Shown in pieces: positions 2,873 through 51,300 of a DNA stretch of 64,000 bases; the stretch's first letter is position 1; the number at the start of each line of letters is the position of its first letter. The notes beneath the pieces were generated by a model. That model searched no databases. It saw only the letters and a program-made list of their open reading frames with translations, and was not told the origin of the DNA. Both the position numbers and the translations under genes were made by a program. Source of the DNA: a virus (Duplodnaviria > Caudoviricetes); IMG/VR virus record IMGVR_UViG_3300002220_000189, positions 32,001 through 96,000 of that record, one strand, 5' to 3'.

Positions 2873-3810
2873 TAATACAAGGTAATTGTTTAGAAATTCT
2901 AAAAACATTGGATGATGAGATAGTACAATGTGTTGTGACTAGCCCGCCATATTTTGCACTTAGAAATTATGAAATAGATGGTCAAATTGGAATGGAAGAA
3001 ACACCTGAAGAATATATTTTAAAACTTGTTGAAATTTTTAGAGAAGTTCATAGAATACTAAAAAAAGATGGTACTTTTTGGTTAAATATAGGTGATAGTT
3101 ATGCGGGTAGCAATCAAGGAGTTGGTGCCAAAAAAATAAATCCGTTACAATTTGCTAATAGGGGCACTAATTTTATGCATGATAGAAAAAAAAGTTTATT
3201 ATCTAGACTTCCGGGATATAAGCCTAAAGATCTTATAGGTATTCCTTGGATGTTAGCATTTGCATTACGTAACGATGGCTGGTGGTTAAGACAAGATATT
3301 ATATGGCATAAACCAAGTTGTATGCCGGAGAGCGTAAAAGATAGATGTACAAGAAATCATGAATATATATTTTTACTTACTAAGAATAAGAAATATTATT
3401 ATGATATTGAGGCGGTAAAGACACCATGTAAAGGAAATTGGGGAACAAGAGACAGAAAATTAGGTAAGTATCATAATGAAGGAACTGGTTTGAATCCTCA
3501 TACTGGATTAGATAAGGAATATGAAAAAGCTAATCTCCGTTCAGTATGGTCAATTACAGTAAAACCCTTTAAAGGTGGGCATTATGCGACTTTTCCGCCA
3601 GAATTACCTGAAATATGTATAAAAGCTGGTAGTAAAGAAGGTGATACAATACTTGATCCATTTGTGGGTACAGGAACAACTTGTATAGAAGCTAAAAAAT
3701 TAAAAAGAAAATATATCGGAATTGATATAAATCCAGAATATATAAAAATTACAAAAGAAAGAATCAAAAATGAAGTTCCAGATGTTATAAATAATCCGTT
3801 TATGAGGTAA
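2869..3810 (+). CDS. Beta-class DNA methyltransferase, probably N4-cytosine
   Basis: VTSPPY catalytic motif, HYATFP, ILDPFVGTGTT SAM motif. Confidence 0.92.
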   Translation: MIIQGNCLEILKTLDDEIVQCVVTSPPYFALRNYEIDGQIGMEETPEEYILKLVEIFREVHRILKKDGTFWLNIGDSYAGSNQGVGAKKINPLQFANRGTNFMHDRKKSLLSRLPGYKPKDLIGIPWMLAFALRNDGWWLRQDIIWHKPSCMPESVKDRCTRNHEYIFLLTKNKKYYYDIEAVKTPCKGNWGTRDRKLGKYHNEGTGLNPHTGLDKEYEKANLRSVWSITVKPFKGGHYATFPPELPEICIKAGSKEGDTILDPFVGTGTTCIEAKKLKRKYIGIDINPEYIKITKERIKNEVPDVINNPFMR

Positions 3811-3818
3811 GGTTGTAA

Positions 3819-4997
3819 ATGAATATATTATTGGTAGAACCAAAGAAGAGTAAAAATTGGGGTAAAAATAATCAATATGTTGGTTTATTAAGAATTGGAA
3901 ATTGGCTTATTCAAGAGGGAAATAATGTACAATATATTCAATTTCCTAATTTACCAAAATTTGTTCCAGATGAAATTTATGTAACGTCAATGTTTACATA
4001 TGATTATAAAATGGTGTGGGATGCAATAGATTTTTATAAGAAGCGATATCCGAAAAGTTATATCAGACTGGGTGGCATATATGCAACGATATGTCCAGAT
4101 CATACTGCTAAAAGTGGTGCTGATGAAGTAATTGCAGGACAGCATCCTGAAGGAAAAGAATATCCGCCTGATCCAAGTATTTTACCATATGAACAAGATT
4201 TTGCATATTTATTTACATCATATGGTTGTAATAGAGCATGTACCTATTGTGCAACTCATATACTTTATGGTGCCGGTATAAGACAGTTATCACCAGATAG
4301 AGTATTGAGTGATATTGTATTTTTAAGAAAGAAGGGTTTCAAGAAGATATATTTTGGTGATGATAATATACTTTATAATTCAGAAAATCATATCAATAAA
4401 GTTTTAGAAGAAATTATAAGAAATAAAATAAAAGTAGAAATTCATATTCCCGGTGGTATGGCTGGTAAGGATTTCACTAAAGAAACAGCATTTTTGATGA
4501 AGAAAGCAGGTGTTACTGAAATAAGTTTTGCTATTGAAAGTGTGTCTGCTGATGTTAGAAAGAAAATGGGAAGAGCAAAGGGTACAACAGAAGATGACTT
4601 GGAAACTGCTTTACAGTATGCTGATGCAGCGGGATTTAAGAGAAATGAGATAAATACATACTTCATTATAGGACTTCCATATCAAAAAGTTGAAGATATG
4701 TCAGAAACACTTGTATATCTTTTGAAATTAGGTGTTTGGGCACATCCACAAAGATTGACACCAATACCTAATACTATTGATTGGAAAAGGATGAAATTAG
4801 AAAATGTAGATTATTCTGATTTGGATTATAAAACTTTTGTTGCACCATCAGAAGATTTTACAGAAGATGATTTAGATAAAATTTATAAGATTGCAAGATA
4901 TTATAATATTGGCAATCGTTATACCGGTGGTTATAATATATTTACAGATGATAGTAAAGTAAGTAATAAAGTAAATGAAGTAATAAGAAAGGAATAA
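3819..4997 (+). CDS. B12-binding-domain radical SAM protein
   Basis: N-terminal cobalamin-binding-like domain (LGGIYAT), GCNRACTYC, FGDDNI, FIIGLP. Confidence 0.85.
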   Translation: MNILLVEPKKSKNWGKNNQYVGLLRIGNWLIQEGNNVQYIQFPNLPKFVPDEIYVTSMFTYDYKMVWDAIDFYKKRYPKSYIRLGGIYATICPDHTAKSGADEVIAGQHPEGKEYPPDPSILPYEQDFAYLFTSYGCNRACTYCATHILYGAGIRQLSPDRVLSDIVFLRKKGFKKIYFGDDNILYNSENHINKVLEEIIRNKIKVEIHIPGGMAGKDFTKETAFLMKKAGVTEISFAIESVSADVRKKMGRAKGTTEDDLETALQYADAAGFKRNEINTYFIIGLPYQKVEDMSETLVYLLKLGVWAHPQRLTPIPNTIDWKRMKLENVDYSDLDYKTFVAPSEDFTEDDLDKIYKIARYYNIGNRYTGGYNIFTDDSKVSNKVNEVIRKE

Positions 4998-23551: not shown

Positions 23552-23723
23552 CTTTAACTCTTTTCAACGGTGAAATTAATTCTTTTGATAATACATCACA
23601 AATTCTTCTTTGTATTTCATTAATTTCCCAAAATTGTTCACATGTTATTTCTAATTGTAATGAATATATGTTTTCCCATGCACTACCAGTAGCTTTTATA
23701 ACAGTAAATTTTTTAATATTCAT
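23544..23723 (-). CDS. Hypothetical protein
   Basis: AAGGA RBS before ATG 23723 (MNIKKFTVIK...). Confidence 0.5.
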   Translation of the reverse strand: MNIKKFTVIKATGSAWENIYSLQLEITCEQFWEINEIQRRICDVLSKELISPLKRVKDE

Positions 23724-24582
23724 TATATTTATCCTTTTCTTTGTTTTCTTTTTTAGGTGCATCATTATAAAATGTGTTAGTCGCAGTAAAAATTTTAAAT
23801 GATCCATCAATATCTTGCTGTATATTTTTTCTATTATCCATATATGTTTTCACAGAAGTTGAGTGAGAATTCATAGCACTATCTAATGAATTAGTAGCTG
23901 TCATACCAGAATTTGTATAACCTAAAACTTGACTATTTCCCGATGTTCCTGAAACTCCAGATCTTCCTGAAACTCCATTTAATGGTGATGCGCCAACATA
24001 TCCTATATTAGCATTTTGTTGTGCAAAATACATTGTATTAGTACCTGCAATACCCAAATCTTTAGATACTTCATCAACATCAAAATTAGATCCAATAAAT
24101 GAAAATGTCCATCTGTTTGTTTCTTTCATTTTATTCATCAATTCTACTATCTTTTTTCCATTATATTCTTTAGAACTATTCTCACATCCATCTGTAATAA
24201 TAACAACTAAATATGAAGTCTTTATATCATCAGCATCTTCATCCATATTTAATTTATTAATAGTGGTACCAATAGCATCATATAATGCAGTTAAACCTCC
24301 TAATTTATAATCATCATCTTTCATATCTCTTACATTATTGATATCTTTTTTCCAAAAAATAGGTTTATCAACTACTGTTTCAAATGTCACTAATGATACT
24401 GTAGTTTTCATAGTACTAGATATTTCTTTTAAATCTTTTAACTGTCTATTAAATGCTCCGGGAACTTCAATTTGTAAAGTACTCATTGAACCAGATCTAT
24501 CTATAATCATTACTATATGATTAATTAAATCAGATTCTTTTACCTTTTCATTTACTTTTATAATTAAATCTTCAAAACTCAT
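23713..24582 (-). CDS. vWA-domain protein
   Basis: IIDRSGSM MIDAS, GLTALYDAIG, IITDGCENSS, WTFSFIG. Confidence 0.9.
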   Translation of the reverse strand: MSFEDLIIKVNEKVKESDLINHIVMIIDRSGSMSTLQIEVPGAFNRQLKDLKEISSTMKTTVSLVTFETVVDKPIFWKKDINNVRDMKDDDYKLGGLTALYDAIGTTINKLNMDEDADDIKTSYLVVIITDGCENSSKEYNGKKIVELMNKMKETNRWTFSFIGSNFDVDEVSKDLGIAGTNTMYFAQQNANIGYVGASPLNGVSGRSGVSGTSGNSQVLGYTNSGMTATNSLDSAMNSHSTSVKTYMDNRKNIQQDIDGSFKIFTATNTFYNDAPKKENKEKDKYNEY

Positions 24583-24766
24583 TTACATCATCCCTCCTTA
24601 TACACTTATCCCCATAAAGTTCAATCGCTGCTTCATAGGATTTTTTCTTCTCATCATCTAAAATTTCGGCAAATACTTCTGCCAATTCGGGTATCATAAC
24701 TAATTTTTCGGTAGTTGGTTTACACCATGCTTGTGCAGCTCTTTGTAAAGAATATTCTGTTGGCAT
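24572..24766 (-). CDS. Hypothetical phage protein
   Basis: RAAQAWC...ELAEVFAEIL; coupled to neighbours. Confidence 0.6.
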   Translation of the reverse strand: MPTEYSLQRAAQAWCKPTTEKLVMIPELAEVFAEILDDEKKKSYEAAIELYGDKCIRRDDVNEF

Positions 24767-25671
24767 TATAATTCCCCCTTTATTATTTGTGCTGTATATT
24801 CTACATTCATTTCAGGATAAAACATCTCAATTTCTTGATATATATTATATATAAGACCTAAATATACATCATTATAATTCATCCCAATATACCAACTTAA
24901 ATCTTCTGGACTTATTATAATTCCTTTTAAACTAGCATAATATCTATGTTCAATAGGTAATAATGGAATACATCCTTTATTTAATGCGGTAAAAAATGTT
25001 GGATCAATATATCCGTCCTTATATTCAGGATTAGAACCTATTATAATAGTAAATCTTGCACTATCATAATCATCTTCTGTAGCATTGACTGAAAATGATT
25101 TATATTCATTAATTTTATTTGATATAATATTTTTACTATTATAACATATCAAATTTTTATGATATATTTTAGCGGATTCTACATAATAATTATCAAATGC
25201 TTTTATTCTATCTGATAATAACCTACCTTTATATAATAGAGTAATTTTTCTTTCATGATCATCAATTTCTATTTCTGAAAGAGTTTTTATTTTAGTCCAT
25301 AATGGTAAATAACGAAAACCAGATCTTAAATGAATAGATGGTTCAAAAAGTTTTACATTCATTTTTTTAAACCAATCAACTTCTTTGTTAGTTAATCCTC
25401 TAAATTTATCAAATATTATTGTCGGTATTTTCTTTTTAGTAGTATATTTTTCAATAATATCTACTTGTTTTAATAATTTATTAGCACTATTTTTATCATA
25501 TGTAGGTATCCAATCAATAAAAATGGCTTTAATATTACTATCAAAGCCATCTTCTATTTCAGTTACTTTTATAGATTTTGCTAATTCTCTGGATAACACA
25601 TAGTCAACATTGAACAATCCTAACATACTTAAAATCCTGAGAAAAGTATTTCTTCTATAGTTGTTCTCCAA
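24766..25671 (-). CDS. Putative GT-B glycosyltransferase-like protein (likely start near 25626)
   Basis: C-terminal half LLYKGR...FTIIIG...YKDGYI...FFTAL..GCIPLL resembles a GT-B nucleotide-sugar-binding domain. Confidence 0.45.
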   Translation of the reverse strand: MENNYRRNTFLRILSMLGLFNVDYVLSRELAKSIKVTEIEDGFDSNIKAIFIDWIPTYDKNSANKLLKQVDIIEKYTTKKKIPTIIFDKFRGLTNKEVDWFKKMNVKLFEPSIHLRSGFRYLPLWTKIKTLSEIEIDDHERKITLLYKGRLLSDRIKAFDNYYVESAKIYHKNLICYNSKNIISNKINEYKSFSVNATEDDYDSARFTIIIGSNPEYKDGYIDPTFFTALNKGCIPLLPIEHRYYASLKGIIISPEDLSWYIGMNYNDVYLGLIYNIYQEIEMFYPEMNVEYTAQIIKGEL

Positions 25672-26990
25672 CCATTTTTATTTTCTACTTCATATTGCTG
25701 TATCCATTCAATAACAGCGTCTGAAAATCCATGAACACGAATCCAGTCTCTATCATATCCTATTCCATATTGATATGATGCAACATTTACCATATATGCA
25801 TTATTTATAGGTTGATAAAATGAAATATCTGTTTGTGATTGTTCATCAGTAAAAACTATTAATCTATCATAATCAGTAACATTATTTTGTAGATATTTCA
25901 TAGCTTTACCCATATCTGTTCCATTATGTTTTTGTGAATTTTTAATTTCATCACCTAAAGTAAATCCTCTTGCCGGTTCAATTCTTACAATATTGTCGGA
26001 AAATGAATAAATATCTACATCATCACAAATTTCACGAAGAAGAATTGCTAAACCATTAGCAACATCAATTCTATTCGTTTGTTCTTTTTGTAAATATTTT
26101 GTTCCCCAAAGATCACCCTCATAACCTAAAGGCCAGTCCATAGAACCAGAAACATCTACAACAAGAATAGTTTTACCATATAATTTTTGTTGACTAGAAA
26201 GACATTTCATCATGGCATTTTCTAATTCTTTTGAATATTCTTTTGCATATTTTTCAGCTGTTATGAATCTATATGGTAAAATCCTTTCAATTTTTATTTC
26301 ATTTAACGCTTGTTTAATAATTTCTGGCATAACACCGTCCCTCTGAAAATTACGTAAATTTCTAAGAACGGCAAGTGCGCCCATTTTATTATGTGTTAAT
26401 AAATCTTCCCATGATTGTTTTTTATCTGCACCCGAAGAAAGTCTTACTTCCCAAGTATCAGGAGATTCTAATGTTTTATTTGCCAATTTAGAAAATATTA
26501 CTGCCTGTTCAGTATCTTTAGGTTTAGGATGTGTTAGAAACATAATATCTCTAAGATCAATTTTACTATTATTATTCCATTTAGATAATTGATAAGCATC
26601 AAATTTGTTGAAAGCTAATGCTAATCCTTTTTTTACTTGAGCAGACAAAGGTTTTTTACCATCTTCCCAATATAAGTTAAGAAATTTCACCATTTCATCT
26701 GGTCTTTGTATAACTCTTGAAAGAACCTTACTTACAAGATTTGTACCTCTTTGTGTTGATGCTAGTTGTTTAACAAGGAGTAAAGGAACACTTCTTAATT
26801 TGAATTTTTCACGAGCTTCTATAGCAAGAGATGCTACTATTTTAGCATCTACTTCATTACATAAATCTTCAATTCTTTCTTTGATTGATGAACCACTTTC
26901 ATAGAAAGTATCTTCCCATAACATACAAGAAAGAACTGACCTTCTAAGTAATTGTTCAGAGGAAATTTTATGATTTTGTAGCATTTTCAC
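25629..26990 (-). CDS. Ro60/Rsr-like TROVE-domain RNA-binding protein with C-terminal vWA
   Basis: LRSVP, IQRPDE, AFNKFDAYQLSKW, LTHPKP, TWEVRLS, ALAVLRNLRN, LPYRF, VDVSGSM, GTD, FTDEQ. Probable start at ATG 26984. Confidence 0.93.
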   Translation of the reverse strand: MKMLQNHKISSEQLLRRSVLSCMLWEDTFYESGSSIKERIEDLCNEVDAKIVASLAIEAREKFKLRSVPLLLVKQLASTQRGTNLVSKVLSRVIQRPDEMVKFLNLYWEDGKKPLSAQVKKGLALAFNKFDAYQLSKWNNNSKIDLRDIMFLTHPKPKDTEQAVIFSKLANKTLESPDTWEVRLSSGADKKQSWEDLLTHNKMGALAVLRNLRNFQRDGVMPEIIKQALNEIKIERILPYRFITAEKYAKEYSKELENAMMKCLSSQQKLYGKTILVVDVSGSMDWPLGYEGDLWGTKYLQKEQTNRIDVANGLAILLREICDDVDIYSFSDNIVRIEPARGFTLGDEIKNSQKHNGTDMGKAMKYLQNNVTDYDRLIVFTDEQSQTDISFYQPINNAYMVNVASYQYGIGYDRDWIRVHGFSDAVIEWIQQYEVENKNGWRTTIEEILFSGF

Positions 26991-27007
26991 ACTCCTTTTA
27001 TTTTTTA

Positions 27008-27089
27008 ATAGGGAACAGTCTAATAGAATCGTATCAAAGATTTGACAATCTTTTTCCTGGTCGATGTATTTCTATTATATCACCACTAT
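27008..27089 (-). ncRNA. Structured RNA unit 3 (candidate Y-like RNA)
   Basis: Terminal stem AUAG-U-GG-U-GA/UUCCCUAU, inner stem UAAUAGAA/UUCUAUUA, motif UACAUCG. Confidence 0.65.
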
Positions 27090-27105
27090 AATTAACATAT
27101 TGTTC

Positions 27106-27171
27106 ATAAGAGGGAATAAGTAATAAGAATATTTTATCTACCGATGTAATTCTTATTTTCACCACTCTTAT
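27106..27171 (-). ncRNA. Structured RNA unit 2 (candidate Y-like RNA)
   Basis: Terminal stem AUAAGAG-U-GG-U-GA/UUCCCUCUUAU, inner stem AAUAAGAAU/AUUCUUAUU, motif UACAUCG. Confidence 0.68.
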
Positions 27172-27186
27172 TGTAAATTATATAAA

Positions 27187-27289
27187 TGATGGGGTTCGAT
27201 CAAGGAGGCTCTAATTTAATACGCTTTTAATCTTTGTGTTACCAAAAAACTTTTCATATACGAAGAAATCCTTCTTTACGCCACCATCA
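27187..27289 (-). ncRNA. Structured RNA unit 1 (candidate Y-like RNA)
   Basis: Terminal stem UGAUGG-U-GG/CCCCAUCA, inner stem AAGAAGG/CCUCCUU, motif UUCUUCG; 5' end coincides with the predicted TSS. Confidence 0.62.
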
Positions 27290-27294
27290 ATAAG

Positions 27295-27323
27295 ATTATA
27301 CCATAATAAATTTATATTGTCAA
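27295..27323 (-). promoter_or_regulatory. Consensus sigma70 promoter with extended -10 driving the RNA array and TROVE operon
   Basis: TTGACA-17 bp (ending TGG)-TATAAT. Confidence 0.9.
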
Positions 27324-27324
27324 C

Positions 27325-27627
27325 TTATTTTTTCTTTAATTTTGGTTTTTCTGCTTTTTTTGATTCTTTTGGTTCATTTTTTATAACAATTTCTTCGATT
27401 TTTACATTTTTGCCCATATAAGCATTTACAATTCTGTCTCTTACTTCAAATGTTACAGAATCCAATCTACTATGCATACCAGCAATCATAATTCTAATAG
27501 GTCCAACAACTTTTTGAATATAATTCTCCGCTTCCTGTAAGTCATGTGCCGCAATAAATGTAGTCCATGAACTCATTGTTGATAATTTTTCATATTCAAT
27601 ACGAAAAACAAACATTTCTTTTGCCAT
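27325..27627 (-). CDS. Hypothetical protein with basic tail
   Basis: GAGGTG RBS, 100 aa. Confidence 0.6.
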   Translation of the reverse strand: MAKEMFVFRIEYEKLSTMSSWTTFIAAHDLQEAENYIQKVVGPIRIMIAGMHSRLDSVTFEVRDRIVNAYMGKNVKIEEIVIKNEPKESKKAEKPKLKKK

Positions 27628-27628
27628 T

Positions 27629-27832
27629 TTACACCTCTTCTAAAGTATCAAAATTCATTACATATTCTATATTACCATTTTTAGAAACATTGATAATTTT
27701 ATAATACGTAATCGTATCGTCCTTTCCTTTTTCTAATTTTTGTTTCGCCAATTCTTTTGTAAGAAATACATCATCAATTTTACCATTCAATGGAAAATCT
27801 TCTTGCATTTGTAGAAAATCAAATATTTTCAT
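27629..27832 (-). CDS. Hypothetical protein
   Basis: TAATG coupling to the upstream peptide. Confidence 0.55.
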   Translation of the reverse strand: MKIFDFLQMQEDFPLNGKIDDVFLTKELAKQKLEKGKDDTITYYKIINVSKNGNIEYVMNFDTLEEV

Positions 27833-48347: not shown

Positions 48348-51300
48348 CTATATTGAATTTTGACATATAAGCCACATTAATGGTGAACTTCCTAATATTG
48401 ATGGTGATGGTTCTGGAATATTACTTTTTTGAGAAGAATCACTTCCACCACCAGCCATTGCAACATTACTATCTCCTCCAGATATCATTGCATTACTTGC
48501 TGCTTGTTGAATTTCTGGAGTTGGTACAGCATTTTCCATTGCTAATGATTTATCTGCTGATCTTATTGCTTCAGGTGCACCAGAAGTACTCAATATCGGC
48601 GGTGTAGTTTTAGCTTCACTTGGTGTAATTTTAACAGAATCCATTGGACTTATACCCATCATTCCAAACATATCTTTTACTGGAGAAGGAATAGTATCAC
48701 CGCCTGTACTCAATATATCTGAAAACATATTATTTACATCTTTACGAAGATCTTCGCCTTTATTTTTTTTCATATTATCTTTTAATGTCTTCATAGCATC
48801 TTTTGAATTAGATATTACATTCAATATATTACCTTTTACCTTTCCACCCATAACATTAGGTGCTACTTTAGAAATAGAGCCAAATATATCAGATATCGGA
48901 TCACCTGTTTGTGCTGGTGTAGGTGTAGTAGATCCTAAACCTGCAGAACTTAACATTGACATCATAGCACCAGAAGCTAAAACACCTAAAAGTTCATCGA
49001 CAATAGGGGGCATTGCACCAACACCACCTAATAATCCAGCACCTGCTCCCATCAACCCTAACATACTTCCAAAACCAGATTCTGCTCCTGTACCCGATGG
49101 TATACCAGTACCTTTCCATGCCAAAGTTCCCATCATTCCTGAATTTTTAGTAACTTTATCAATATAATCTGGATTTATTCCTATTTTACCCGCACCTGCA
49201 TTATATGCCGAAATTGCTTTATTCATATCACCGTTTACTCGTTTATCTTTAAGTAAACTAGCTAAATATGCTGTTCCGGCCATTACATTTTGTTCTGGAT
49301 TGAAATAATCTTGCACGCCATATTGTGTTTTCCACATATCATCATATTTTGAATTGAGTTGCATCAAACCGAAACTATTCTCTGGTGGTTTACTTCTAGC
49401 CAATGCATTAAAGTTACTTTCAGTTTGTATAATTCCTCTTATAATACTTTCTGGAACACCATATTTTGCACTTGCTTTTGCAATTATTGCATTTATATCA
49501 TAATCCTTTGACATAGAAACTGGTGACATTTGTATATGAACAGGATCTTTTACAGGATATGGTCTATAAAATCCAAACTTAGCTAGCTTATCATCTTTCT
49601 CTAATTTATTTGCTGTTGCTGCTGGAATATCTATAGCCATACCATAATTATGAAAAGATGTTCCGGGCTGTGCTACACCATATGGATATTTTGATGGATT
49701 TGCTTGTCTTTCAGCATACATTCTTGTTTGTTCTTCTATTGATCTGTATGCAGATGTTACAGGAATATTGCCTACACTATCACTCATCAATTTGAATCTT
49801 TGCATAAATGCTGGATTCATTCCAGAAAAATCGGGTTTATAACCTGGTGCCGGTCCGTAACCATCTCCAATTTCTCTTCTTCTTGCTTTTATTGGCGGAT
49901 CACCAGTTGCATATGCAGCATCATCTTTAAATACAGAAGTCGGATCTTTATATGTTTTATACATACCATAACCAACACCCGCGGCGACAGCAGCTGTCAT
50001 TGCTGCAACTCCAGCTGTTCCTAAAGTAAGGCTACCAGCAGTTTTTACTGCTCCCGGTATAATATCTTTTCCACCAGCTCCTGCTAATAATCTTTGTGCA
50101 GCAGTATTTAAAAGCATTGCAGAATTATCAAGTTTACTAAATATTGAATAAATATAAATAGCTTTAAGTGGAAAAAGTACTAATGAACTAAAAAAATCAA
50201 ATATTTTACCCATTACTGGTTGTAATAAATAAAATCCTGAAAATACTAGACCAATTTTTCCGATAAAATCTGATTCATTCCATGCTTTTGTAAAAACTTC
50301 CCACATCCATTTAGTTAAATCTATACTAGAATCAATTATTTTACCTGCAAGTGCTTTAAGAGAATTAACAATAAGAGTAAATCCCTCACCTTCAACACCA
50401 AAATACTCTTTAAACCATCCTATAAAGGGAGTGTAAATATAATCCACAAAAAAGTTTTTAAAACTATTCCATATTGACCTTATTTTTTCTCTAGTTTCTT
50501 CACTATGTTTACCAAGTGCCGCCCATGCAAAAGTTGCCCCACCAACTACAAAAGATATAGTTTTTAAAAGTTTAGATGTTTTTATAAAATTAAATGTTTT
50601 GGAAATTATTCCCTCACCATCATCATCACCACTTTTCTTTTTTATATATAATTTTTTTAATTGTTCTTTCCATGATCCTCCATATGGATCCCATGATTTT
50701 TTTAATAAAAATGGTGACATCAACGCCTTCATTTTTTCTACTGGTCTATCCTGTGATTCATAAATACCTTTTAAATATTTTAAATTAAATCTTCTTTCAA
50801 TAGCTTCCTTATATGGTGATATTTTTTTACCAAAATAAGTTTTAAATGTTGATTTTAATGTTTTTTTTCCTTCTGGATCAAAAGTTTTAATTACAGATTT
50901 TCTTTCTTTCCATTGAGTAGATAAACTTTTTACTATCTTTTTTAATAATCCTTCTTGTTTTTTTTCACTTATTACTAACTTTTCAGTTTTTTGCAAAATG
51001 CTTGTATTATCAATACCTTTTTTTATTTTAATATAAGGAGAAGATATAAGGGCACCAATACCTAACATTAATTTAGGAAATATTTTTAATAATGGCTCTA
51101 ATAACATTTTTCGTAAATAATCACCAGAACTTTTTAATACATTAACAAATGGTTCTACTTCTCTATATAAGTCTCCAAATAATTCTCCAAAAAATTTATT
51201 ATATACTCCTTTTAATGAATCAAATAACCTCTCTGTTTGATATTTAAATTGAGTTGATAATTTTGCAAAGAATAAACCAACATTTGATGATATAATTTTT

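What the first reader, a model, noticed from the sequence alone, without database searches (positions are those of the whole stretch)
25629..27323. Phage Ro60/TROVE operon led by a tandem array of three structured RNAs (candidate new Y-RNA class)
Seen: a consensus extended sigma70 promoter (27323-27295) whose expected start site falls at the 5' end of unit 1. Three units follow (27289-27187, 27171-27106, 27089-27008), separated by 15-16 nt AU-rich linkers, and then the TROVE RBS. Each unit has a terminal helix with a bulged U in G-U-GG paired to CCC, a second helix, a conserved GRAWUWCWUCG motif and a variable loop of different length. Helix sequences differ between units while pairing is preserved (AUAG/CUAU, AUAAGAG/CUCUUAU, UGAUGG/CCAUCA; UAAUAGAA/UUCUAUUA, AAUAAGAAU/AUUCUUAUU), which indicates selection on RNA structure. 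Known: Ro60/Rsr binds a bulged helix formed by Y-RNA ends, and bacterial Y RNAs are encoded next to rsr. These units lack the canonical GGUCCGA bulged-C motif and an obvious tRNA-like domain. Inference: an early phage RNP system in which one Ro60 is loaded with several scaffold RNAs carrying interchangeable loops (adaptors, decoys or guides). An alternative is a set of autoregulatory Ro-binding sites in the leader.
Basis: partly seen in the sequence, partly recalled or inferred. Interest (0 to 1): 0.9.

Follow-up and report, generated by a model that had tools for sequence, protein, structure and literature searches.

The report
Phage Ro60 gene with three Y RNAs
An uncultured AT-rich T4-like phage carries a Ro60 RNA-binding protein gene preceded by three small structured RNAs. 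They are tRNA-less members of a Y-RNA family found beside related Ro60 genes in phages and bacteria, so this is a good example of a known kind of particle, not a new class.

Summary

The units are not a new class. A covariance model built only from other loci (R2) finds exactly these three units in the 127-kb phage record and nothing else. The same handle runs P1, bulged U, GG/CC, GGYGWA, P2, UWCWUC, then 3' GUU-CC-C. A model that includes the window units (R1) finds it 277 times in the window plus 99 related TROVE loci, and 69 times in 25 of 27 bacterial loci. Every hit is on the TROVE strand.

Covariation is heavy: 95% of cells pair, and 17 of 17 pairs show compensatory changes.

Caulobacter phage CcrColossus, reported to have Y-RNA-like RNAs, carries eight such units. 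Some units elsewhere hold YrlA-type tRNA-like inserts. The window's three do not, and neither do the arrays of at least twelve other loci.

Rfam's YrlA model misses the whole handle family.

Best reading: co-transcribed Y RNAs that load the phage Ro60. Binding, processing and the effector are inferred.

The scan met this family before on other DNA (e1-5618166) and reached the same verdict.

The parts
27295..27323 (-). Extended sigma-70-type promoter TTGACA-17-TGgTATAAT; predicted start at about 27289-27287
   Evidence: Matches 12 of 12 hexamer positions plus TG; the only such site in 25400-27700. Sequence read. Transcription itself is not shown.
27187..27289 (-). Y-RNA unit 1 (103 nt). P1 UGAUGG/CCAUCA, bulged U, GG/CC, GGCGUA element, short P2 AAGGA/UCCUU, UUUCUUCG, and an apical part of about 50 nt.
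   Evidence: R2 (built without it) 40.3 bits, E 2.4e-8. R1 55.7 bits. Fold. It aligns to the T-arm-bearing first units of related arrays, but its own T-arm is degenerate.
27172..27186 (-). 15-nt AU-rich linker between units 1 and 2; presumed processing site
   Evidence: Sequence. Processing is inferred from M. smegmatis YrlA/YrlB, which are cut from one precursor (PMC4201824).
27106..27171 (-). Y-RNA unit 2 (66 nt), the minimal form. P1 AUAAGAG/CUCUUAU, bulged U, GG/CC, GGUGAA element, P2 AAUAAGAAU/AUUCUUAUU, UUACAUCG, and a small apical hairpin.
   Evidence: R2 53.7 bits, E 7e-12. R1 57.5 bits. The MFE equals the proposed structure, z -2.8. It also folds this way within the whole leader.
27090..27105 (-). 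16-nt AU-rich linker between units 2 and 3
   Evidence: Sequence.
27008..27089 (-). Y-RNA unit 3 (82 nt). P1 AUAG/CUAU, bulged U, GG/CC, GGUGAU element, P2 UAAUAGAA/UUCUAUUA, AUACAUCG, an apical hairpin, and a 3' loop GACUGUU that equals the family consensus.
   Evidence: R2 35.1 bits, E 5.5e-7. R1 51.2 bits. Fold (z -0.7, so thermodynamics alone are weak).
26992..26997 (-). Ribosome-binding site AAGGAG, 7 nt before the ATG at 26984
   Evidence: Sequence. The GTG at 26990 listed lies only 1 nt after the RBS, so ATG 26984 is the likelier start.
25629..26984 (-). Ro60 / TROVE-vWA protein gene (451 aa), with a MIDAS-type DVSGS motif
   Evidence: Pfam TROVE 2.6e-20; vWA_Ro60 26.4 bits, just under its cut-off. 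The best solved relatives are Thermus phage phiLo Ro60 9KOP/9L5Y, E 1.3e-22. The 12 best distinct structural matches listed for the AlphaFold model (ranks 1-13, mean pLDDT 67) are all Ro60.

Best explanation
The region is a phage Ro60 / Y-RNA operon. One strong sigma-70-type promoter, probably early, is predicted to drive a single transcript. That transcript holds three Y-RNA units and then the ro60 (TROVE-vWA) mRNA.

Each unit closes on itself. Its 5' and 3' ends pair (P1). Next come an invariant bulged U and two G-C pairs. Then comes an asymmetric internal loop: 5' YGWA opposite 7 nt that usually end in GUU. A second helix (P2) follows, then the conserved UWCWUC(G) and a variable apical part.

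By analogy with characterised Y RNAs, the constant handle is the Ro60-binding module. The apical part is the module that recruits or blocks another factor. In Deinococcus, Salmonella and Thermus phage phiLo that factor is the exoribonuclease PNPase. The AU-rich linkers would be cut by a host endonuclease to release RNAs of about 103, 66 and 82 nt.

Shown here: the sequence features, conservation and covariation of the handle, its strict linkage and co-orientation with TROVE genes, and the Ro60 fold of the protein.

Inferred: transcription, processing, Ro60 binding and the effector.

[quoted passage not shown] They are the YrlB-like, tRNA-less sort of bacterial Y RNA.
For: 1. Anatomy is as described.

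2. Recognition is independent of the window. R2, built from 25 units of other loci, finds exactly the three units (53.7, 40.3, 35.1 bits). It finds nothing else in 64 kb or in the 127-kb record.

3. Linkage. R1 gives 277 hits at E <= 0.01 in the window plus 99 TROVE loci (551 kb, both strands). All are on the TROVE strand, and about 87 of the 99 loci have at least one. In bacterial genomes there are 69 hits in 25 of 27 loci, again all on the TROVE strand.

4. Structure.
- RNAalifold finds the same frame on its own, with 12 of 15 pairs compensatory.
- On 20 units, 92% of cells pair against 66% when shuffled. P2 was not used to pick the sequences, and all 9 of its pairs show double changes.
- On 135 distinct units, 95% of cells pair, 17 of 17 pairs are compensatory, and sliding the partners drops pairing to 45-55%.
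- G-U and U-G pairs are frequent, which fits RNA of this strand and not DNA.

5. Conserved single-stranded letters. The bulged U is present in 150 of 150 units. G11, A14, U26, C28, U30, C31 and the 3' G-UU are each present in 81-100% of units; all but the 3' G (122 of 148) are above 95%.

6. Link to known Y RNAs. In other units the same handle frames T-arm plus D-arm inserts. These score below threshold on Rfam YrlA: 45 and 31 bits in L037, 56 and 47 in Xanthomonas phage 10KY502B, 42 in CcrColossus. CcrColossus has eight units just upstream of its TROVE gene, and PMC12135203 names it among phages with reported Y-RNA-like RNAs.

7. Precedents. PMC4201824 reports Y RNAs within 4 kb of Ro60 on the same strand, the GNCGAAN0-1G motif, two or more Y RNAs per species, and M. 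smegmatis YrlA/YrlB cut from one precursor upstream of rsr. PMC12135203 reports that phage Ro60 binds upstream Y-like RNAs through CGAA and forms a complex with host PNPase.

8. The protein is Ro60-like by sequence and fold.
Against:
- Thermodynamic support is weak. Unit z-scores are -0.7 to -2.8. The MFE of the whole leader (z -1.1) keeps unit 2, but replaces P1 of units 1 and 3 with long-range pairs.
- None of the three units carries the strict GNCGAAN0-1G motif. They read GGCGUAAAG, GGUGAAAA and GGUGAUAU. Only 19 of 150 family members match it strictly.
- Rfam YrlA and Y_RNA do not match.
- R1 does not match the experimentally bound phiLo Yrl1/Yrl2 region. It finds nothing in mycobacteriophage Bxz1 or in crAss001. 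The handle is therefore specific to one Ro60 clade, and binding is transferred by analogy only.
- No PNPase, RtcB or Rnl-type ligase was looked for or found as a partner here. RtcB and RNA_ligase are absent from the 60%-complete record.
Confidence: 0.85

Rival explanations
1. The units act mainly in cis. They would be Ro60-binding sites or processing signals in the 5' leader that let the protein control translation or stability of its own mRNA, and not released trans-acting RNAs.
For: In this window the units sit between the only promoter and the RBS, with no terminator. Unit 3 ends 10 nt before the RBS. Co-transcription makes feedback plausible, and this role could coexist with a trans role.
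Against: The same units lie downstream of TROVE in at least ten loci (L004, L010, L017, L054, L056, L058, L079, L084, L090, L096). In Ralstonia phage RsoM2USA they lie about 5 and 30 kb away. Arrays hold up to eight units, with elaborate tRNA-like inserts that a leader would not need. Related bacterial Y RNAs are stable, Ro60-bound small RNAs (PMC4201824).
Confidence: 0.07
2. The units are structured small RNAs with a job unrelated to Ro60, such as decoys for host nucleases or tRNA-modifying enzymes. They would sit near TROVE only through shared regulation.
For: Binding was not tested. Cargo parts in relatives mimic tRNA, which many other proteins recognise.
Against: The constant part, not the cargo, is what travels with TROVE across phages and several bacterial phyla. 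Co-orientation is 100% over 346 hits. It resembles the published Ro-binding motif. It is absent from the rest of this genome.
Confidence: 0.05
3. This is not an RNA feature. It would be DNA-level repeats (protein-binding iterons, or a recombination or origin structure) or chance palindromes in AT-rich DNA.
For: The genome is 27% G+C, where hairpins arise easily. Fold z-scores are modest.
Against: Hits are strand-specific, with none on the antisense strand in 705 kb searched. G-U pairs would be A-C mismatches on the other strand. The same frame occurs in 60-70% G+C genomes. A perfect promoter is placed at the 5' end of unit 1.
Confidence: 0.01

Closest known systems
Bacterial and phage Y RNAs of the YrlA/YrlB group with Rsr/Ro60 (Chen et al. 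2014, PMC4201824; Rfam RF02553 YrlA)
   Same: They are encoded next to Ro60 on the same strand. Their 5' and 3' ends pair into a stem that carries a conserved 5' motif (GNCGAAN0-1G there; GG[C/U]G[A/U]A here). They are modular, with a variable apical part. There are several per genome, and in M. smegmatis two upstream ones are cut from one precursor. In relatives of this locus the same handle frames YrlA-type T-arm and D-arm inserts.
   Different: The window's three units have no tRNA-like domain. None matches the strict motif. None matches RF02553 even at E <= 10. None of the handle-bearing units in the loci scanned against Rfam (22 loci at gathering cut-offs plus CcrColossus at E <= 0.01) reached RF02553's 69-bit cut-off. 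The second conserved element UWCWUC and the invariant bulged U are not mentioned in the texts I could read.
Thermus phage phiLo Ro60 with Yrl1 and Yrl2 (PMC12135203; PDB 9KOP, 9L5Y)
   Same: It is a phage-encoded Ro60 with Y-like RNAs upstream of the gene. Binding depends on a CGAA motif in a stem-bulge-stem. The complex engages host PNPase and slows it. phiLo Ro60 is the closest solved relative of the window protein.
   Different: The proteins are only about 25% identical. R1 does not match the published upstream region. It gives only weak hits downstream of the phiLo gene (20 and 7.7 bits). The phiLo RNAs were picked by the CGAA motif plus RNAfold, not by a comparative family.
Y-RNA arrays of Caulobacter phage CcrColossus and Xanthomonas phage 10KY502B
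   Same: They share the handle family: eight and five tandem units directly upstream of a TROVE gene 41-45% identical to the window's.
   Different: Those arrays mix tRNA-like and short units. One unit in each is annotated as a tRNA. The window has three short units in a 27% G+C, T4-like genome with no close cultivated relative.
Vertebrate Y RNAs with Ro60 (Rfam RF00019; Stein et al. 2005, as cited in PMC4201824)
   Same: A terminal stem has a single bulged pyrimidine next to a conserved 5'-strand motif. A second stem and a variable loop follow.
   Different: The bulge is C, not U, and the motif is GGUCCGA. RF00019 finds nothing in this genome or in the two phage arrays tested.

Membership tests
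Y RNA in the broad sense (Ro60-associated small RNA) | Encoded close to a Ro60/TROVE gene and on the same strand | tested here: met
   The units lie 24-305 nt upstream of the TROVE ATG on the same strand. Family-wide, all 346 hits are co-oriented with TROVE.
Y RNA in the broad sense (Ro60-associated small RNA) | 5' and 3' ends pair into a stem that holds a conserved, bulged protein-binding helix, with a variable module beyond it | tested here: met
   Folds, RNAalifold and covariation counts. The bulged U is invariant in 150 of 150 units.
Y RNA in the broad sense (Ro60-associated small RNA) | Physically bound by Ro60 and accumulates as a discrete small RNA | not testable with these tools
YrlA (Rfam RF02553) | tRNA-like domain with conserved T-arm and D-arm | tested here: not met
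   No tRNA or tRNA-like hit in the window. Unit 1 aligns to T-arm-bearing relatives, but its own T-arm is degenerate.
YrlA (Rfam RF02553) | Score at or above the family's gathering cut-off (69 bits) | tested here: not met
   No hit at E <= 10 in 26900-27400 and none in the whole record.
YrlA/YrlB Ro-binding module (Chen et al. 2014) | GNCGAAN0-1G motif near the 5' end | tested here: not met
   The strict pattern fails in all three units: GGCGUAAAG, GGUGAAAA, GGUGAUAU. These are one- or two-letter variants at the homologous place. At the CGAA position the family reads UGAA 44, CGUA 32, CGAA 28, UGUA 23. Only 19 of 150 are strict matches.
Handle family defined here (models R1 and R2) | Significant score against a model built without the sequence in question | tested here: met
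   R2 scores 53.7, 40.3 and 35.1 bits, and these are the only hits in the window and the genome.
Ro60 / Rsr protein | TROVE domain followed by a vWA domain with a MIDAS DxSxS motif | tested here: met
   Pfam TROVE 73.5 bits against a cut-off of 23. vWA_Ro60 at 26.4 and VWA_2 at 25.7 bits are just under their cut-offs. DVSGS is read in the sequence.
Ro60 / Rsr protein | Ro60 fold | tested here: met
   The AlphaFold model has mean pLDDT 67. Its 12 best distinct structural matches listed (ranks 1-13) are all Ro60 of phage phiLo, Xenopus, human and Deinococcus, with E 7e-19 to 7e-11 and TM 0.47-0.57. Model quality is moderate.

The most novel reading that the evidence does not exclude
This clade of Ro60 proteins would recognise a composite handle that has not been described: an invariant bulged U, a non-canonical YGWA/UGUU internal loop, and a second element UWCWUC. 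Rfam has no model for it. In this T4-like phage, Ro60 would work only with tRNA-less minimal Y RNAs made early from the ro60 transcript. Their A-rich apical loops would capture or inhibit a host 3'-5' exoribonuclease. The operon would then be an RNA-stabilising or counter-defence device, not an RNA-quality-control one.
Probability: 0.2. Interest if true: 0.55.

Novelty: new member of a known kind. Interest (0 to 1): 0.3.

Why it matters
Ro60/Y-RNA particles are known in animals, bacteria and a few phages. This locus adds a clean minimal example: one promoter, three short units and the gene, in a phage lineage with no cultivated relative.

The wider result matters more for annotation. Several hundred handle-bearing RNAs beside TROVE genes in phages and bacteria escape Rfam's YrlA model. 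Some of their tRNA-like inserts are deposited as tRNA genes.

The 66-nt unit 2 is close to the smallest natural version of the handle. That makes it a convenient substrate for binding and structural work on how bacterial-type Ro60 reads its RNA.

None of this changes the general picture of Ro60 biology.

Tried and rejected
- **Rfam scans.** The whole window at gathering cut-offs gave nothing. The leader at E <= 10 gave only chance-level hits (SIB_RNA, Bacteroid-trp and the like), which I rejected. ARAGORN found no tRNA.
- **Close relatives.** DNA search of phage records found none. The closest TROVE proteins elsewhere are 64-59% identical. Orthologous covariation therefore could not be done, and family-level comparison was used instead.
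- **Loosened regular expression for the handle.** It gave 249 raw antisense hits and was discarded as non-specific. Only the covariance-model results are used.
- **Complementarity of the units to the phage genome.** Nothing rose above chance. The one exception is a 19-of-20 AT-rich match of unit 2 at G000:121450-121469 (E 0.001), which I do not interpret.
- **Vertebrate Y_RNA model RF00019.** No hit in this genome or in two phage arrays. From memory, human Y1 has a GGUCCGAAG...GUUAUCUC layout that resembles the handle. That remains an untested lead.
- **R1 on the published phiLo Yrl1/Yrl2 region.** No match. No R1 hit in Bxz1 or crAss001 either.
- **Rfam alignment of YrlA stem 1 to P2.** I judge this a scoring artefact. 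The GGCGAA and CUUGU letters suggest that stem 1 corresponds to the GG/CC part of the handle, but I could not settle this without the published alignment. The supplements are not held.
- **Repair partners.** RtcB and RNA_ligase are absent from the 60%-complete record.
- **Downstream 286-aa gene.** It is conserved after TROVE in four related loci, but it looks like a T4-type glycosyltransferase and not an RNP partner. I dropped it from the system.
Full report
**What is in the sequence**

The window is part of a 127-kb IMG/VR virus record. CheckV estimates it as about 60% complete, and its G+C is 27%. On the minus strand, an upstream 100-aa ORF stops at 27325. Immediately after it comes TTGACA-17 nt-TGgTATAAT (27323-27295). 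This matches 12 of 12 hexamer positions with an extended -10, and it is the only such site in 25400-27700.

Three units follow: 27289-27187, 27171-27106 and 27089-27008. They are separated by 15 and 16 AU-rich bases. Then come AAGGAG (26997-26992), an ATG at 26984 and a 451-aa ORF ending at 25629. No terminator-like site separates the units from the ORF.

That motif occurs three times in 64 kb, all here, against 0.42 expected.

Thermodynamics alone are weak. Unit z-scores are -1.9, -2.8 and -0.7. The fold of the whole leader keeps unit 2 but not the terminal helices of units 1 and 3.

**The protein**

The ORF matches Pfam TROVE at 2.6e-20 and has a vWA part with DVSGS. Its best solved relatives are the Ro60 of Thermus phage phiLo, 9KOP and 9L5Y, at E 1.3e-22. 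An AlphaFold model with mean pLDDT 67 has Ro60 of phage, frog, human and Deinococcus as its 12 best distinct structural matches listed, ranks 1-13.

The neighbours are a UvsX-like recombinase, GIY-YIG homing endonucleases and a separate vWA protein. This is a T4-like phage with no close cultivated relative.

**Known catalogues**

Rfam gives nothing at gathering cut-offs for the window. It gives no Y_RNA or YrlA hit in the leader even at E <= 10. There are no tRNAs.

**Relatives**

No close DNA relative exists in the phage collection. TROVE proteins of phages are at most 45-49% identical there and in IMG/VR. In the large protein collection the best are 64-59% identical. I therefore collected 22 viral, 80 metagenomic and 69 bacterial loci that encode relatives.

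A pattern taken from the three units hit one foreign locus, L037. This is a 60% G+C contig. On inspection it carries six tandem units upstream of its TROVE gene, all with the same frame. A structure-aware scan then found the frame in dozens of loci.

**The handle family**

I aligned twenty short units, including the window's three. On that alignment RNAalifold predicts, on its own, P1, the bulge, GG/CC and P2, with compensatory changes in 12 of 15 pairs.

Counting pairs on the named structure gives 92% paired cells, against 66% after shuffling and 43-56% after sliding the partners. P2 was not used to choose the sequences, and all nine of its pairs show double changes. P1 pairing was a selection criterion, so its count on this alignment is partly by construction.

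Model R1 built from this alignment finds 277 matches at E <= 0.01 in the window plus 99 loci. That is 551 kb searched on both strands. Every match is on the strand of the TROVE gene. By my count from the table, about 87 of the 99 loci have at least one.

On the 150 best matches (135 distinct), 95% of cells pair and 17 of 17 pairs show compensatory changes. G-U pairs are common, which only makes sense for RNA of this strand. That alignment is fitted to the model, so it leans towards the structure.

The consensus runs as follows:
- P1 of about 6 bp.
- U, in 150 of 150 units.
- GG, then Y, G, W, A.
- P2 of about 9 bp.
- U-A-C-U-U-C-(G), with C and the second U invariant.
- The variable part, then P2'.
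- G-N-Y-U-G-U-U, then CC, C and P1'.

In 27 bacterial loci R1 gives 69 more hits in 25 loci, again all co-oriented. These loci come from Acidobacteriota, Clostridia, Planctomycetota, Desulfobulbus, Asticcacaulis, Terriglobus and others.

**Is the window a member?**

The window's units were in the R1 seed, so I built R2 from 25 units of other loci only. R2 finds exactly the three units, at 53.7, 40.3 and 35.1 bits. It finds nothing else in the window or in the whole 127-kb record.

**Relation to published Y RNAs**

Chen et al. 2014 (PMC4201824) reported YrlA-like RNAs within 4 kb of Ro60, on the same strand, in 254 bacteria and 22 phages. They described a 5' motif GNCGAAN0-1G and a tRNA-like domain. 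Each of the three species studied had at least two Y RNAs. In M. smegmatis, two are cut from one precursor upstream of rsr.

In L037, in Xanthomonas phage 10KY502B and in Caulobacter phage CcrColossus, several handle-bearing units enclose a T-arm, a stem and a D-arm. These score below threshold on Rfam YrlA, at 25-56 bits against a cut-off of 69.

CcrColossus has eight units directly upstream of its TROVE gene. A 2025 paper names it among phages with previously reported Y-RNA-like RNAs (PMC12135203).

That paper also shows that phiLo Ro60 binds two upstream Y-like RNAs through a CGAA motif. The complex engages host PNPase and slows it.

At the homologous place, the family found here reads UGAA (44), CGUA (32), CGAA (28) and UGUA (23). 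The window has CGUA, UGAA and UGAU. Only 19 of 150 members match the strict published pattern.

So these RNAs belong to the known kind, bacterial and phage Y RNAs. They share a handle with published phage examples. But they are not YrlA in the Rfam sense, and the strict motif is not met.

The handle is not universal. R1 finds nothing in mycobacteriophage Bxz1 or in crAss001. In phiLo it gives only weak hits, and those lie downstream of the gene.

**How this array compares**

About half of the 150 best units are 105 nt or shorter, and about a third carry a T-loop-like sequence. At least twelve loci have arrays made only of short units directly upstream of TROVE. Examples are L005, L006, L024, L031, L033, L046, L059, L062, L069, L077, L126 and L129.

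L024 is the closest metagenomic locus fetched, with a protein 55% identical. Its array has the same layout as the window: one unit of about 104 nt followed by two of 70-76 nt. Its first unit, like those of L051 and L125, holds a T-arm-like hairpin. Window unit 1 aligns there, but the hairpin is degenerate.

**Mechanism and rivals**

The best reading is one early transcript that is processed at the AU-rich linkers into three Y RNAs plus the ro60 mRNA. The handle would bind Ro60, and the apical parts would address other factors. Only the anatomy, conservation, linkage and protein fold are shown. The rest is inferred from the named precedents.

A purely cis-regulatory role is unlikely. Arrays lie downstream of TROVE in at least ten loci, and kilobases away in Ralstonia phage RsoM2USA. 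DNA-level repeats are excluded by strand specificity and by the G-U pairs.

**Novelty**

This is a new member of a known kind. An earlier follow-up in this scan, on another genome (e1-5618166), reached the same view: such multi-RNA arrays are normal for this group. I found no paper that describes the arrays or the full handle. That absence covers only the library I could search.

Noticed in passing
L108:2262-2329 (Xanthomonas phage 10KY502B) and L124:2604-2671 (Caulobacter phage CcrColossus): The deposited tRNA-Thr and tRNA-Gln genes lie inside handle-bearing Y-RNA units (L108:2258-2389, L124:2600-2764). They are probably tRNA-like Y-RNA cargo annotated as tRNA.
   Followed up: partly
L123:3581-3644 and 3771-3850 (Thermus phage phiLo, downstream of the Ro60 gene): Two weak handle-like units (20 and 7.7 bits) have P1, P2, GGGUACUUC and a 3' UUCC. 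They overlap the annotated CDS phiLo_25 (3614-3850). They are distinct from the published upstream Yrl1 and Yrl2.
   Followed up: partly
window 27106-27171 and 27008-27089 (minus strand): In units 2 and 3 the 5' strand of P1 is repeated inside the 5' strand of P2 (AUAAGAG / AAUAAGAAU; AUAG / UAAUAGAA). An alternative pairing is therefore possible. I did not see this in the GC-rich relatives.
   Followed up: no
window 27187-27289; L024:2127-2230, L051:103-205, L125:2159-2270: The first unit of the closest arrays carries a T-arm-like hairpin (ACGGTTCAAATCCGT) but no D-arm. Window unit 1 aligns there with a degenerate version (AAAGATTAAAAGCGT). It may be a decayed T-arm unit.
   Followed up: partly
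window 24766-25626 (minus strand): The 286-aa gene right after TROVE has no Pfam or PHROG match. The protein atlas places it with T4-type and GT-B glycosyltransferases. Homologues follow TROVE in L027, L029, L034 and L035. The upstream 100-aa ORF (27325-27627) is also syntenic, in L027, L029, L030, L034 and L035.
   Followed up: partly
window 23713-24582 (minus strand): A second, separate vWA-domain protein (Pfam VWA 6e-07, PHROG 7371) lies two genes downstream of the Ro60 gene. Weak homologues occur in three other TROVE loci (L020, L074, L180), but not in a fixed position.
   Followed up: partly
L107 record MG752970.1 at 49861-50070 and 75203-75506 (Ralstonia phage RsoM2USA): Four handle units lie about 5 and 30 kb from the TROVE gene on the same strand. 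Arrays need not be adjacent to the gene in jumbo phages.
   Followed up: no
G000:C1:121450-121469 (outside the window): A 19-of-20 match to the apical part and the P2 3' strand of unit 2 (E 0.001). It is AT-rich and its meaning is unknown.
   Followed up: no
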